This document shows, one piece after another, positions 1 through 3,000 of a stretch of DNA of 64,000 nt. Source of the DNA: a virus (lineage: Duplodnaviria > Heunggongvirae > Uroviricota > Caudoviricetes); the IMG/VR virus record IMGVR_UViG_2721755728_000011; one strand, written 5' to 3'. Within the stretch, counting starts at the first letter, position 1, and each line of letters starts with the position of its first letter. Made by a program: the position numbers.

Positions 1-3000
1 ATGGCGCTCATAAATCTGGTATACTTACCTTTACACATTGGGGCTGATTCTGGATTCGACGGGATTTGCGAAACCCAAGGTGCATGCCGAGGGGCGGTTG
101 GCCTCGTAAAAAGCCGCAAAAAATAGTCGCAAACGACGAAAACTACGCTTTAGCAGCTTAATAACCTGCTTAGAGCCCTCTCTCCCTAGCCTCCGCTCTT
201 AGGACGGGGATCAAGAGAGGTCAAACCCAAAAGAGATCGCGTGGAAGCCCTGCCTGGGGTTGAAGCGTTAAAACTTAATCAGGCTAGTTTGTTAGTGGCG
301 TGTCCGTCCGCAGCTGGCAAGCGAATGTAAAGACTGACTAAGCATGTAGTACCGAGGATGTAGGAATTTCGGACGCGGGTTCAACTCCCGCCAGCTCCAC
401 CAATCATGATTGGACGGTGTAAGGACAACACCAATAAAAACAGGAAGTTAGCAGTCTCAGCAGGACACCGACCAGACGGTGAGGAGACAAAAAAGGATAC
501 GCAAAGGAGCCGCGGCTCCCGAGTGACAAAAAAGCCCGCTTATGCGGGCTTTTTTGTTTTTTTCCCTCAAGCTCACTGACGTGTTCTTGCCTCAACTACT
601 TTCTGGTATATAGCGATAGCTTCATCAACCAAAGCTAATGGATAGCAAGAATTTATATTCAATCCGGAGGGGCACTTAATTCTTTCTGCTCCACGTTCAC
701 TACGCAATTTTTCACACCATTGCCAAAGTTCCTCAACTGAATAGGTATCCAAACCTAACTCCATCAATCGTTGAGGAACACTTCTGAACTGAGACAAATC
801 TCTTAAACTTTCTAACGAGTTAACTTTTAGTTCAACTTGGTTTACTCTACTTTCTAACTCTTCACGTTTTTCTATTTCCATTACCAATGCTTGAACCGTC
901 TGCTGCAGACTGTTAGCAAAAGCACTCAGTTCTGAACGTTCTTGTTTAGGTGGCGGAGGATATACACCAAATTCACGAATAGACGGAAGGACCTGATGAA
1001 AAAGCCAGCGTTGGAATTTTTTCCCCGCAGCAGTAGTATCCTGAGCAAGTACTCTATATAGACCTGGTTCAGTAAGAAATACCTCAGAGATAGTTTCACC
1101 ATCCACGACAAGAGAAACATTCCTAAACTCATCTGGATCTAAAGTTTTTATTACCGCTCTTATTACAGTGAGCAAGCTTTGAGAAGTCTTTCCATCCAGT
1201 TTTCTGTTCTCAGCAGAAAGCGTTCTTAGCACATCTGAAAGTGAAACAAAAATCTGCCCTTTTTCATTCATGCTACGGATATAATTTTCTCCACACTCTC
1301 CTTCGTAGCATAATTGTAACAAATTCTTTTGCACGCCATCCCCTCCTTTTTTTATGGATTATACATCCTATAAACATGTTGTCACCGAAAGGGAAAAGCA
1401 TAAACCCAATTTATGTTCCACAAGATGTTCAAAAATCAAACAACCATATAGCTGAGGAGCACAAAAGAGCAAAAGTTTACCAACCCCATATATCCATACA
1501 GCACATAAAATTGACACTACATGTGGTATTTTTTAAGTTACGCCTTGCACCATTTCATGATTTTATGTAGATTGTCATCACACGCTGAGATTAAAAAATT
1601 CTACAATTTTTGTTGATCTTGAGTTTGGTTTTTAGTATAAGTGAGCATGGATTGTAGGAGGCGCAACATGGTAACTAGCTTTGGTAAGACTCTCAGAAAA
1701 ATGAGAATAGACCGGGGTATGGTGCTCAAAAATATGGCTGATCTGTTAGGCGTTAGTTCGGCTTACTTATCCGCCATTGAATTAGGCAAAAGAGCTATAC
1801 CGGACTCATTAGTAAATACGATTGCAACAACTTTTGAGCTTAGCGGACAAGACATCATCAATCTCAAGAAACAGGCAGAGATTTCTCAACCGTCCATTAA
1901 GGTTGATATGTCGGATGCAAATGAGCAGAACAAAGAACTAATGCTTGTTTTTGCTCGTAAATTTAAGGACCTGAGTCCAGAGCAACTCGATAAGCTTAAT
2001 AAAATGTTAAAGGACTGAATAATGATTGCGAAACGAGAACTTGGCCATCGCGTTTCACCTCTCAGCACCAGCATGATTAAATCATACGCTCATCGTCTGA
2101 GAGACGTTCTTCAGATATCAAATCACACATATCTGAGACTGGATGTATTACTAGAAGGTCTTATGGCCTCAGAAAGCATTGAGCTAGAAATTGTTGAAGA
2201 TCATGAACTGCCCAAACGCTATGCAGTGACTTATCCAGATAAGAACAAAATTGTTTTACAGCGATCTGTTTACGATGCAGTGTGCAATGGTGAGAACCAT
2301 GCGAGATTCACTGTTGCGCATGAACTTGGTCATTTAGTCATGCATCGCAATCAAAGTATCTATGCACGTAATAAGACTAGTGGAGGGCATAAAATCTATG
2401 AAGACAGCGAATGGCAAGCAGATGTTTTTGCAAGCCACTTCTTAATTGACTCAAGACTAGTTTTGCCCACAATGACTGTTGAAGATATAAGCAAAACATT
2501 TGGTGTCAGTCAACAAGCGGCTGAAACCTGGATGAGAAAAAATGCAAAAAGATAACGAAAAAGCCAGCGAACCGCTGTCGCTGGCTTCTCCTATCGTAAG
2601 CAAATACGAAAAACTTGGCGGTTGTGAGTATACGCTTACCTTAGGTTTTGTCAACAGCGAAACTTTACAGGTAACACGATATGACCATTGAAAAAGCTGT
2701 ATCTGAGGAATACATCACAATTTACCGTCCTTTTATTACGGTCAAAGGTAAACGGATCTTTGCTCGTCAAAAAGGCTTGGCAGCCTTTCCTATCAAAATT
2801 CCTGCCTCTAAGTATCGAGGATAATCTTTGCTAATCTTAGGCCCTTTTCTAGGGCCTTTTATTACACTTCTGTTACGCGCACCACAGATAGAGTTTCAGC
2901 TAAAACTTTTGTTCATACCTAGGAGTCTGCTGACGAGTGGTTTGTTCACTAATAAACACGTAAAAACGGTAACGGCTGGACATCATTTAATATTCGCACT

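What the first reader, a model, noticed from the sequence alone, without database searches (positions are those of the whole stretch)
573..2555. Divergent HTH / ImmA-type metallopeptidase pair facing a Bro-N antirepressor-like gene
The HTH gene (GGAGG RBS, ATG 1668) and the HEXXH peptidase gene are 4 nt apart, which is the ImmR-ImmA / CapH-CapP architecture in which the peptidase cleaves the repressor after DNA damage. The ~330 bp divergent intergenic region (1335..1667) should hold the operators. The de-repressed target could be the Bro-N protein, the downstream small ORF and GIY-YIG gene, or both.
Basis: partly seen in the sequence, partly recalled or inferred. Interest (0 to 1): 0.6.

Follow-up and report, generated by a model that had tools for sequence, protein, structure and literature searches.

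The report
Repressor–protease cassette with hidden microprotein
The repressor/protease gene pair is real, but it belongs to a small self-contained prophage cargo cassette whose probable output is an overlooked 47-residue protein held in check by a predicted antisense RNA; neither the neighbouring Bro-N gene nor the GIY-YIG nuclease gene appears to be its target.

Summary
Bro-N gene 573-1334 (-), XRE HTH gene 1668-2018 (+) and M78/ImmA peptidase gene 2022-2555 (+) are real, and H100-E101-x-x-H104...E130 is invariant in 29 homologues.

- The pair is of the ImmR/ImmA - CapH/CapP kind. A covarying palindromic operator (1599-1617) overlaps the -35 of its own promoter.
- The GIY-YIG gene is PD-T4-3/CMoRE, a known single-gene restriction enzyme. 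It occurs in 820 of 5426 E. coli genomes, against 32-33 for the pair, so it is an independent cassette.
- Bro-N and the pair each occur without the other. No operator lies at the Bro-N promoter.
- The conserved partner is the second small ORF (2681-2824). A basic micro-ORF follows ImmA in 87 of 97 loci across several phyla, and this one is under purifying selection.
- Between ImmA and that ORF lies a conserved convergent promoter plus terminator, which predicts a cis-antisense sRNA of about 65 nt.

Best model: an autonomous cassette (about 1579-2864) carried in the attP-proximal hotspot of an ssrA-integrating temperate phage. It is auto-repressed by HTH, de-repressed when ImmA cleaves HTH, and releases the microprotein as effector. 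Signal, cleavage and effector activity are inferred. I rate it a new variant of a known kind, of moderate interest.

The parts
40..402 (+). ssrA tmRNA gene (context). Its last ~28 nt (375-402) travel with the phage DNA and mark the att core, so the prophage end starts here.
   Evidence: ARAGORN. Window 375-3059 is 98% identical to a prophage at prfC in strain MS1657. Phage LLS annotates a 'tmRNA pseudogene/attP' next to its Bro-N homologue.
525..558 (.). Strong hairpin flanked by A- and T-runs: terminator for ssrA-side transcription and for the Bro-N gene.
   Evidence: 15-bp stem, T-run.
573..1334 (-). Bro-N domain protein (253 aa): N-terminal Bro-N/APSES-type DNA-binding domain, long coiled coil (about 135-175), small C-terminal domain with a W.WCEK motif. 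A neighbouring, separable cargo gene; not shown to belong to the cassette.
1358..1385 (-). Predicted Bro-N promoter (GTGACA-16-TATAAT). It has no operator-like site.
1365..1578 (.). Variable spacer between the Bro-N unit and the HTH cassette. It does not align with Salmonella or phage LLS.
   Evidence: blastn breakpoints.
1599..1617 (.). Operator: imperfect palindrome TTCTACA-ATTTT-TGTTGAT overlapping the -35.
   Evidence: Alignment A3 with compensatory arms (Serratia TTCAACA..TGTTGAA; Providencia TCTACAAATTTTGTAGA). It is the only such site in the window. Family-wide palindromes.
1613..1641 (+). Predicted cassette promoter: -35 TTGATC (1613-1618), 17-nt spacer, -10 TATAAG (1636-1641).
   Evidence: Read from the sequence. 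TATAA and TGTTGA are conserved in five genera.
1668..2018 (+). XRE-family repressor (116 aa): HTH at residues 1-68 plus a C-terminal helical region carrying the conserved F95-A96-R97 motif (candidate cleavage site).
2022..2555 (+). ImmA-type M78/COG2856 Zn-metallopeptidase (177 aa, peptidase domain only).
2553..2654 (-). Predicted cis-antisense sRNA gene: promoter TTGACA (2654-2649), 16-nt spacer, TATACT (2632-2627); transcript from about 2620 to about 2553; terminator hairpin 2591-2557 followed by a T-run.
   Evidence: z -4.0. Strand- and position-specific conservation: terminator in 41 of 88 regions against 5 on the other strand, promoter in 31 of 52 against 7. Only 6 of 123 nt differ from Salmonella, with no codon bias. 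No Rfam family.
2542..2691 (+). Annotated 49-aa 'hypothetical protein' (sORF1). Probably not a gene: its apparent conservation is that of the antisense promoter and terminator.
   Evidence: The frame is broken in Edwardsiella and phage LLS. No third-position bias.
2681..2824 (+). sORF2: 47-aa basic beta-rich microprotein (…EEYITIYRPFITVKGKRIFARQKGLAAFPIKIP…). The conserved third gene and proposed output of the cassette.
   Evidence: 18 synonymous against 3 non-synonymous codon changes versus Salmonella. AF2 pLDDT 81. No Pfam family.
2839..2865 (+). Intrinsic terminator ending the cassette.
   Evidence: Homology with Salmonella ends at 2864.
3246..4019 (+). PD-T4-3/CMoRE GIY-YIG type IV restriction endonuclease. 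An independent neighbouring cassette (about 3049-4077) flanked by 28-nt direct repeats at 3032-3059 and 4052-4079. Not part of the system.

Best explanation
The HTH/ImmA pair is the regulatory front end of a compact, autonomously mobile cassette (about 1579-2864). It consists of operator and promoter, the XRE repressor, the ImmA-type M78 peptidase, a convergent cis-antisense sRNA gene, a 47-aa basic microprotein (sORF2) and a terminator. It rides as cargo in the accessory region between attP and the tail-fibre genes of an ssrA-integrating temperate phage.

Proposed working:
1. HTH dimers bind the palindrome over the -35 and keep the operon nearly off. The binding site is supported by sequence and covariation; the binding itself is inferred.
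2. A stress or infection signal activates ImmA, which cuts HTH in its C-terminal region, probably at the conserved F95-A96-R97. This is inferred by analogy with ImmR/ImmA, DdrO/IrrE and CapH/CapP. The signal is unknown, because the GAF sensor domain is absent.
3. De-repression drives read-through into sORF2. The antisense sRNA otherwise suppresses leaky sORF2 expression. The sRNA gene is predicted from conserved signals; its action is inferred.
4. The microprotein is the effector, most likely a nucleic-acid-binding, growth-arresting or anti-phage factor. The cassette would then behave like a three-component toxin-antitoxin or abortive-infection-type module. This step is inferred.

Bro-N (573-1334) and PD-T4-3/CMoRE (3246-4019) are independent cargo genes stacked in the same hotspot.
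For: - Catalytic set invariant.
- HTH directly upstream of ImmA in 96 of 97 loci.
- Operator palindrome with compensatory arm changes and family-wide. It is the only such site in the window.
- Cassette boundaries from blastn: 1579-2864 against Salmonella, 1567-2824 against phage LLS, 1598-2817 against Edwardsiella.
- sORF2 homologues follow ImmA in 61 of 97 loci. A second micro-ORF family accounts for 22 more and a Zn-ribbon or NGK variant for 4, giving 87 of 97. The loci include Clostridia, Bacteroidota and Synergistota.
- Purifying selection on sORF2. Confident small beta fold.
- Antisense signals: near-consensus promoter plus terminator, both strand- and position-specific across taxa, stable fold, and nucleotide-level conservation of the spacer.
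- The cassette sits at typical moron sites in lambdoid, P2-like and Mu-like prophages and in an R-M/TA island. In strain L3452210II the same flanks hold a type II R-M system instead.
- Makarova et al. 2009 predicted three-component Xre-COG2856-toxin systems. RosmerTA pairs an HTH+M78 antitoxin with diverse small toxins (PADLOC RmrA hits).
Against: - No experiment supports any step. Cleavage, signal, sRNA expression and microprotein activity are untested.
- The peptidase lacks the sensor domains of CapP/IrrE, so DNA-damage responsiveness cannot simply be carried over.
- sORF2 is not hydrophobic like classical type I toxins. It has no structural or sequence relatives that suggest an activity.
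- 10 of 97 loci show no micro-ORF, one of them because the contig ends.
- The strict scans find the antisense terminator in 47% and the promoter in 60% of unique regions, not in all.
- Bro-N adjacency persists in four phage backbones, so a functional link to Bro-N is not excluded.
Confidence: 0.55

Rival explanations
1. The pair is an ImmR/ImmA-type switch that controls the divergent Bro-N gene. Bro-N acts as an antirepressor that induces the prophage after DNA damage.
For: - The divergent adjacency of Bro-N and the pair is kept in the ssrA lambdoid prophage, a prfC lambdoid prophage, a P2-like Salmonella/Citrobacter prophage and phage LLS.
- PHROG profiles labelled anti-repressor Ant match the Bro-N part.
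- A 16-nt inverted copy of the right operator half lies at 1421-1436.
- Makarova et al. noted recurrent Bro-Xre pairs.
Against: - No operator-like palindrome at the Bro-N promoter.
- The promoter-proximal spacer is not conserved between E. coli, Salmonella and LLS.
- The cassette occurs without Bro-N in Edwardsiella, Serratia, Providencia and Rheinheimera and in every other non-enterobacterial locus whose genes were listed.
- Full-length Bro-N homologues occur alone in Pantoea, Yersinia, Methylovulum and a metagenome.
- No ANT/KilAC domain.
- One host prophage has its own 230-aa cI-like repressor.
Confidence: 0.12
2. sORF2 is not an effector. It is a cofactor or sensor, for example a nucleic-acid-binding adaptor that stands in for the missing GAF domain and activates ImmA. 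The biological output would then be in trans: ImmA cleaving, or HTH repressing, components of other phages or prophages.
For: - The peptidase is a bare catalytic domain.
- sORF2 is basic and aromatic-rich.
- In the Listeria MpaR precedent (recalled from my own knowledge, not checked with these tools), one ImmA-like protease acts on repressors of several elements.
- No other gene lies inside the cassette.
Against: - Antisense control placed directly upstream of sORF2 is typical of genes that must be kept off, not of a sensor.
- There is no second operator in the window.
- The micro-ORFs fall into two sequence families plus a variant. That fits swappable effectors better than a co-evolving cofactor.
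Confidence: 0.15
3. A plain two-component Xre-COG2856 toxin-antitoxin or addiction pair, with the peptidase as toxin and HTH as antitoxin. The small ORF and the antisense signals would be incidental.
For: Makarova et al. list COG2856-Xre as a predicted TA pair. A Brucella ZnMP/HTH-Xre pair has been treated as a TA system.
Against: - A micro-ORF is kept in 87 of 97 loci at a fixed distance and is under purifying selection.
- The antisense signals are strand-specific.
- Characterised members of this kind (ImmA, IrrE, CapP) are regulators, not toxins.
Confidence: 0.1
4. A CapH/CapP-type regulator of the downstream defence gene PD-T4-3/CMoRE.
For: Same strand and only 420 bp apart. CapH/CapP-like pairs do regulate diverse defence operons. 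One study speculates that PD-T4-3 may be repressed in its native host.
Against: - PD-T4-3, with the same upstream region, is in 820 genomes against 32-33 for the pair.
- It is flanked by its own 28-nt repeats.
- A terminator and a dinI-like remnant lie between the pair and PD-T4-3.
- No operator lies upstream of it.
- The pair occurs without it.
Confidence: 0.03

Closest known systems
ImmR/ImmA of Bacillus ICEBs1 and phage phi105 (XRE repressor + COG2856 peptidase)
   Same: A short peptidase of about 170 aa with only the catalytic domain, adjacent to and co-transcribed with an XRE repressor. An auto-regulated promoter. Carried on a mobile element.
   Different: The gene order is HTH then peptidase. 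The pair is not the element's master switch: the cassette sits in cargo positions of unrelated phages. A conserved microprotein and a predicted antisense sRNA follow instead of int/xis.
CapH/CapP (CBASS and other defence operons; Lau et al. 2022; Calloji et al. 2026)
   Same: The best profile and PDB matches (capH over the full length, capP, 7t5t). A repressor of about 110 aa with an HTH and a helical C-terminal domain. A conserved F-x-R motif where CapH is cut (F82|R83).
   Different: CapP is about 290 aa with HTH-like and GAF domains that bind ssDNA and CapH, and often has a cysteine-switch loop. Here these are absent. No recognised defence operon is under its control.
RosmerTA (RmrA = fused HTH+M78 antitoxin, RmrT = diverse small toxins; Millman et al. 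2022, this description of RmrA/RmrT recalled from memory, paper not read here)
   Same: HTH and M78 chemistry coupled to a small, family-variable downstream protein. Found in defence and prophage contexts. Domain-level PADLOC hits.
   Different: Here HTH and peptidase are separate proteins. The small proteins are 30-60 aa. An antisense sRNA is predicted. No RmrT similarity was detected.
SymE/SymR (SOS-induced type I toxin-antitoxin of E. coli; recalled from memory, not checked with these tools)
   Same: A stress-responsive repressor at the transcription level plus a cis-antisense sRNA at the RNA level, both guarding a small, non-membrane, beta-rich protein.
   Different: The repressor there is LexA, not an XRE/ImmA pair. 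SymE is 113 aa with an AbrB-like fold. The antisense RNA there overlaps the start codon, whereas here it lies 60-125 nt upstream.
PD-T4-3 / CMoRE (neighbouring gene only)
   Same: The window protein is identical to WP_000355484.1 of O157:H7 and matches the PADLOC model over its full length.
   Different: It is not part of the finding's system.

Membership tests
XRE repressor + COG2856/M78 peptidase modules (ImmR/ImmA kind) | M78 peptidase with HEXXH and a downstream Glu ligand | tested here: met
   Pfam PF06114, E 2.8e-11. H100, E101, H104 and E130 are invariant in 29 sequences.
XRE repressor + COG2856/M78 peptidase modules (ImmR/ImmA kind) | Adjacent, co-directional XRE HTH gene | tested here: met
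   3-nt gap in the window. A full-length homologue lies upstream in 96 of 97 loci.
XRE repressor + COG2856/M78 peptidase modules (ImmR/ImmA kind) | Repressor binds an operator at the regulated promoter | tested here: inconclusive
   A palindrome over the -35 with compensatory changes. Binding itself was not measured.
XRE repressor + COG2856/M78 peptidase modules (ImmR/ImmA kind) | Peptidase cleaves the repressor on a signal | not testable with these tools
   Only a conserved FAR motif in the C-terminal region.
CapH/CapP | CapP has peptidase + HTH-like + GAF domains, with ssDNA bound in the interdomain groove | tested here: not met
   The protein is 177 aa. It matches capP profile positions 31-146 of 242, and 7t5t residues 84-144 of 291.
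CapH/CapP | Cysteine-switch loop between HEXXH and the Glu ligand (present in a third of CapPs) | tested here: not met
   There is no Cys between H104 and E130 (RNQSIYARNKTSGGHKIYEDSE).
CapH/CapP | Controls an adjacent multi-gene immune operon | tested here: not met
   The only nearby defence gene, PD-T4-3, is independent.
RosmerTA | RmrA is a single protein of about 370-400 aa with fused HTH and M78 domains, next to RmrT | tested here: not met
   The proteins are separate. RmrA hits cover single domains only.
Type I toxin-antitoxin (cis-antisense sRNA + small toxin) | Convergent sRNA gene overlapping the toxin transcript | tested here: inconclusive
   Promoter and terminator are predicted and conserved. 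There are no expression data and no Rfam family.
Type I toxin-antitoxin (cis-antisense sRNA + small toxin) | The small protein is toxic | not testable with these tools
   sORF2 is soluble and basic, unlike the usual membrane peptides.
Phage antirepressors of the Bro-N + ANT/KilAC type | Bro-N domain | tested here: met
Phage antirepressors of the Bro-N + ANT/KilAC type | C-terminal ANT/KilAC antirepressor domain | tested here: not met
PD-T4-3 / CMoRE (neighbour) | Full-length match to the family model, and GIY-YIG domain | tested here: met
   PADLOC PDLC04031, E 2.4e-140, positions 1-256 of 256. PF22945. 100% identical to the O157:H7 protein.

The most novel reading that the evidence does not exclude
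The cassette is a widespread, so far undescribed three-protein-gene plus one-RNA system found in Proteobacteria, Firmicutes, Bacteroidota and Synergistota. A sensor-less ImmA-type protease and an XRE repressor gate, together with a cis-antisense sRNA, the release of a basic microprotein of 30-60 aa. That microprotein is a new kind of anti-phage or growth-arrest effector. The system would be a hybrid of type I and type II toxin-antitoxin logic, carried as phage cargo.
Probability: 0.35. Interest if true: 0.7.

Novelty: new variant of a known kind. Interest (0 to 1): 0.5.

Why it matters
XRE/M78 pairs are among the commonest gene pairs on mobile elements, but for most of them the regulated output is unknown. 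In this subfamily the output appears to be inside the cassette. It is a microprotein that gene callers usually miss: it is unannotated in phage LLS and in most genomes, and it has no Pfam family. A conserved antisense RNA appears to guard it.

If the model holds, it would:
- add a very small effector and an RNA layer to the ImmA/CapP family of stress-gated switches;
- give an experimentally simple 1.3-kb unit to test for anti-phage or toxin activity;
- correct the default reading that such pairs regulate whichever larger gene lies next to them.

It also shows that the neighbouring Bro-N and PD-T4-3 genes are independent cargo in a swap-prone hotspot next to attP.

Tried and rejected
- LexA control: no match to the 20-nt LexA consensus with up to 3 mismatches anywhere in the window.
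- Rfam: nothing at 2553-2654. The sub-threshold hits around 490-630 all reflect the ssrA-side terminator hairpin.
- PADLOC for Bro-N and both small ORFs: no hit.
- Pfam for eight diverse micro-ORFs at E up to 10: nothing meaningful.
- PDB sequence search with the HTH C-terminal region: nothing meaningful.
- Library-wide phmmer with sORF2: 29 hits. All but two are small proteins. The two long hits (a 416-aa repeat protein and a 2002-aa Ig-domain protein) were judged spurious.
- sORF1 (2542-2691) as a real gene or a mok-like leader: rejected. The frame is broken in Edwardsiella and LLS, and the region is conserved at the nucleotide level without codon bias.
- The distal promoter-like site TTGACA at 1511 and the ACATGT motifs at 1374 and 1519 as operators: not conserved in Salmonella or LLS.
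- RNAalifold on seven sRNA sequences: weak covariation. The close relatives are nearly identical and Rheinheimera is misaligned. The strand and position statistics are the better evidence.
- Using the window's own prophage immunity region to test the antirepressor idea: not possible. The prophage is interrupted by an inverted junction with a second prophage at about 34.8 kb.
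Full report
**1. Setting**

The window starts inside E. coli chromosomal DNA. The tmRNA gene ssrA lies at 40-402. Next come a short accessory region and then the tail-fibre assembly and tail-fibre genes of a lambdoid prophage, read on the minus strand. The first 26 kb are 99.4-99.7% identical to strain C3. The finding therefore lies in the region between the attachment site and the tail-fibre genes, which is the classical cargo ('moron') position.

The isolated temperate phage LLS shows the same order in its own genome: int, attP (annotated as a tmRNA pseudogene), Bro-N homologue, HTH, peptidase, then further on an invertase and tail fibres.

**2.

- Bro-N (573-1334, minus strand), HTH (1668-2018) and the M78 peptidase (2022-2555) all have significant Pfam matches.
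- The ribosome-binding site AGGAGG lies at 1656-1661.
- The two plus-strand genes are 3 nt apart.
- The peptidase carries H100-E101-x-x-H104 and E130 within a YEDSEWQA motif. These residues are invariant in 29 homologues down to 32% identity.
- PADLOC gives capH (1e-10, over the whole protein) and capP (5e-15). The best solved relative of the peptidase is CapP 7t5t.

**3. The GIY-YIG gene is a known, independent system**

- It matches PADLOC PD-T4-3 over its full length (E 2e-140).
- It is identical to the O157:H7 protein.
- PD-T4-3 has been characterised as CMoRE, a single-gene type IV endonuclease that cuts DNA containing 5hmC or glucosyl-5hmC. It is active on its own when cloned.
- With its 184-bp upstream region it occurs in 820 of 5426 complete E. 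coli genomes. The HTH-ImmA block occurs in 32-33.
- It sits next to unrelated genes elsewhere.
- It is bracketed by a 28-nt direct repeat at 3032-3059 and 4052-4079.
- It is separated from the pair by a terminator at 2839-2857 and a dinI-like remnant.
- Two strains carry Bro-N, HTH, ImmA and the small ORFs in a prfC-site prophage without PD-T4-3.

**4. Bro-N is separable too**

- Homologous HTH-ImmA pairs in Edwardsiella, Serratia, Providencia, Rheinheimera, Marinimicrobium, Rhodoferax and a metagenomic Mu-like phage have no Bro-N gene.
- Full-length Bro-N homologues (33-71% identity) occur without the pair in Pantoea, Yersinia, Methylovulum and a metagenome.
- Between E. coli, Salmonella and phage LLS, the ssrA-Bro-N block (window 8-1364) and the HTH block (1579-2864) each align. 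The 214 bp between them, which holds the predicted Bro-N promoter, does not.
- The AF2 model (pLDDT 82) shows a Bro-N/APSES-type DNA-binding domain, a 40-residue coiled coil and a small C-terminal domain with no informative structural match.
- There is no ANT/KilAC domain, so the label 'antirepressor' rests only on the Bro-N part.

**5. The operator**

An alignment of the HTH upstream regions from five genera shows one conserved block. It is a palindrome, TTCTACA-N5-TGTTGAT (1599-1617), overlapping a -35 TTGATC. A -10 TATAAG lies 17 nt downstream.

The arms change in a compensatory way: TTCAACA/TGTTGAA in Serratia, and a perfect TCTACAAA-T-TTTGTAGA in Providencia.

Across 90 unique loci, comparable palindromes lie 55-90 nt upstream of the HTH start. 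They are of the types TTAACC-N5-7-GGTTAA, TTCTACA..TGTAGAA and TTCACA..TGTGAA. Palindromes with 9 or more matched arm positions occur in 22% of regions, against 3.8% of shuffled controls.

In the whole 64-kb window the pattern occurs once, at the HTH promoter. That count is not itself above chance: the shuffles give a mean of 0.53 matches, and 44 of 100 shuffles give at least one. The covariation carries the argument. No such site lies at the Bro-N promoter or upstream of PD-T4-3. Auto-repression is therefore the only regulatory link that the sequence supports.

**6. The conserved third gene**

tblastn and an iterated HMM show that the second small ORF (sORF2, 2681-2824, 47 aa) follows the peptidase on the same strand in 61 of 97 loci. 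The start of its conserved core lies at a nearly fixed distance of 123-254 nt from the peptidase stop.

Of the remaining 36 loci, 22 carry a second micro-ORF family at the same place, with the pattern …V.V..Y.R[FY]RFG[RK]WE.V..H.RS.P. Four more carry a Zn-ribbon or NGK variant. In total 87 of 97 loci have a basic micro-ORF after the peptidase.

Between E. coli and Salmonella the sORF2 core shows 18 synonymous and 3 non-synonymous codon changes. Nineteen of 23 nucleotide changes fall at third positions.

**7. A predicted antisense sRNA**

Between the peptidase stop and sORF2, on the minus strand, lies a near-consensus promoter: TTGACA, 16 nt, TATACT (2654-2627). About 30 nt further on comes a 14-bp G+C-rich hairpin with a T-run (2591-2557). 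The predicted RNA of about 65 nt has a single-stranded 5' end (CCGCCAAG…), a small hairpin and the terminator. Its folding z-score is -4.0.

- The terminator is conserved in structure with different sequence in Providencia and Rheinheimera.
- Over 88 unique regions a minus-strand terminator lies 0-45 nt after the peptidase stop in most of the 41 regions where one was found (some lie up to about 165 nt downstream). Only 5 regions have a plus-strand terminator.
- A minus-strand promoter-like site follows in 31 of 52 regions, against 7 on the plus strand.
- This spacer differs at only 6 of 123 nt between E. coli and Salmonella, with no third-position bias. The cassette as a whole is 81% identical.
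- The annotated 49-aa 'sORF1' that covers this spacer has a broken frame in Edwardsiella and in phage LLS. It is probably an artefact of the conserved RNA signals.
- Rfam has no family here.

**8. Context**

The cassette occupies cargo sites of unrelated elements:
- next to attP in lambdoid and P2-like prophages;
- in the nin region or the Q-lysis junction of lambdoid prophages;
- between mor and the lysis genes of Mu-like phages;
- beside a polyvalent-protein element;
- inside an R-M/toxin-antitoxin island.

In strain L3452210II the same left and right flanks enclose a type II R-M system in place of the Bro-N-to-sORF2 stretch. This is the pattern seen at defence hotspots.

**9. Mechanism**

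Shown by sequence and comparison:
- the gene set;
- the complete catalytic site;
- the operator at the cassette's own promoter;
- the independence of the cassette from its neighbours;
- the coding status of sORF2;
- the conserved antisense transcription signals.

Inferred by analogy with ImmR/ImmA, DdrO/IrrE and CapH/CapP: the peptidase cleaves HTH. The best-conserved residues outside the HTH are F95-A96-R97, and CapH is cut at F82|R83. This makes a cut site there plausible.

The trigger is unknown. CapP senses ssDNA through an interdomain groove that involves its GAF domain, and the 177-aa protein here has no such domain.

The cassette contains no other gene. Control by both a repressor and an antisense RNA is typical of harmful products; SymE/SymR is the example I recall from memory. 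I therefore take the microprotein to be the effector. The cassette would be a three-component toxin-antitoxin or abortive-infection-like module of the sort Makarova et al. predicted for Xre-COG2856. It would be related in logic to RosmerTA.

**10. Verdict**

It is wrong about PD-T4-3 and unsupported for Bro-N.

I found no paper describing the tripartite cassette or its sRNA. The library is incomplete, so prior description cannot be excluded. I classify it as a new variant of a known kind, of moderate interest.

Noticed in passing
window 3246-4019 (cassette about 3049-4077): The GIY-YIG gene is PD-T4-3/CMoRE, identical to the crystallised O157:H7 protein family. The cassette is bracketed by a 28-nt terminator-like direct repeat (3032-3059 and 4052-4079) and is present in 820 of 5426 complete E. 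coli genomes in many contexts.
   Followed up: yes
window 34464-34796 (-) and 34883-35263 (+): Two ORFs in opposite orientation encode the same DUF968-type C-terminal sequence. From about 34.9 kb the window continues into the late region of a second lambdoid prophage (Q, porin, lysis, terminase). This looks like an inversion or recombination junction between two prophages, so the ssrA prophage lacks its early/immunity region here.
   Followed up: partly
L006 (NZ_CP076527.1) 1744-6177, compared with window 375-4234: The same flanks as in the window enclose a type II restriction endonuclease and a Dcm-type methyltransferase instead of Bro-N/HTH/ImmA/sORF2. This is a cargo-swap hotspot next to the ssrA attP.
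   Followed up: partly
window 2868-3057: This stretch is 85% identical to the 3' end and terminator of a DinI-like gene in strain MS1657, where it occurs twice and flanks the Bro-N-to-sORF2 block as a direct repeat of about 190 bp. It may be a trace of how the block was inserted.
   Followed up: partly
L018, L026-L033, L037, L046, L048, L051, L054, L055, L063, L069, L077, L083, L085, L092, L094 (130-300 nt after the peptidase stop): A second unannotated micro-ORF family (31-50 aa; …V.V..Y.RFRFGRWE.V..H.RS.P) replaces sORF2. L019, L098 and L099 carry a variant framed by CxxC…CxC (Zn-ribbon-like).
   Followed up: partly
L106 (phage LLS, PQ299149.1) 5676-5795: The deposited annotation of this isolated temperate phage does not call the sORF2 homologue (MGITNTNEEYITIYRPFITVKGKRIFAHQRGLTAFPIKIPVSKYRG), although it has a good ribosome-binding site.
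   Followed up: yes
L104 (Methylovulum) 4001-6339: A 39%-identical Bro-N homologue sits with an AAA_15/AAA_21 ATPase gene and a 165-aa ORF, inserted between glyQ and glyS. This suggests that this Bro-N family may work with other partners.
   Followed up: no
window 4132-4200 (-): A partial, sub-threshold Rfam match to IS009 (68 bits against a gathering score of 117; E 1.5e-14), cut off by the search boundary, inside the 3' part of the tail-fibre assembly gene.
   Followed up: no
window 1421-1436 and 1606-1621: A 16-nt inverted copy (81% complementary) of the right half of the operator lies about 40 nt upstream of the Bro-N -35. It is not conserved in Salmonella or LLS, and its meaning is unknown.
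   Followed up: partly
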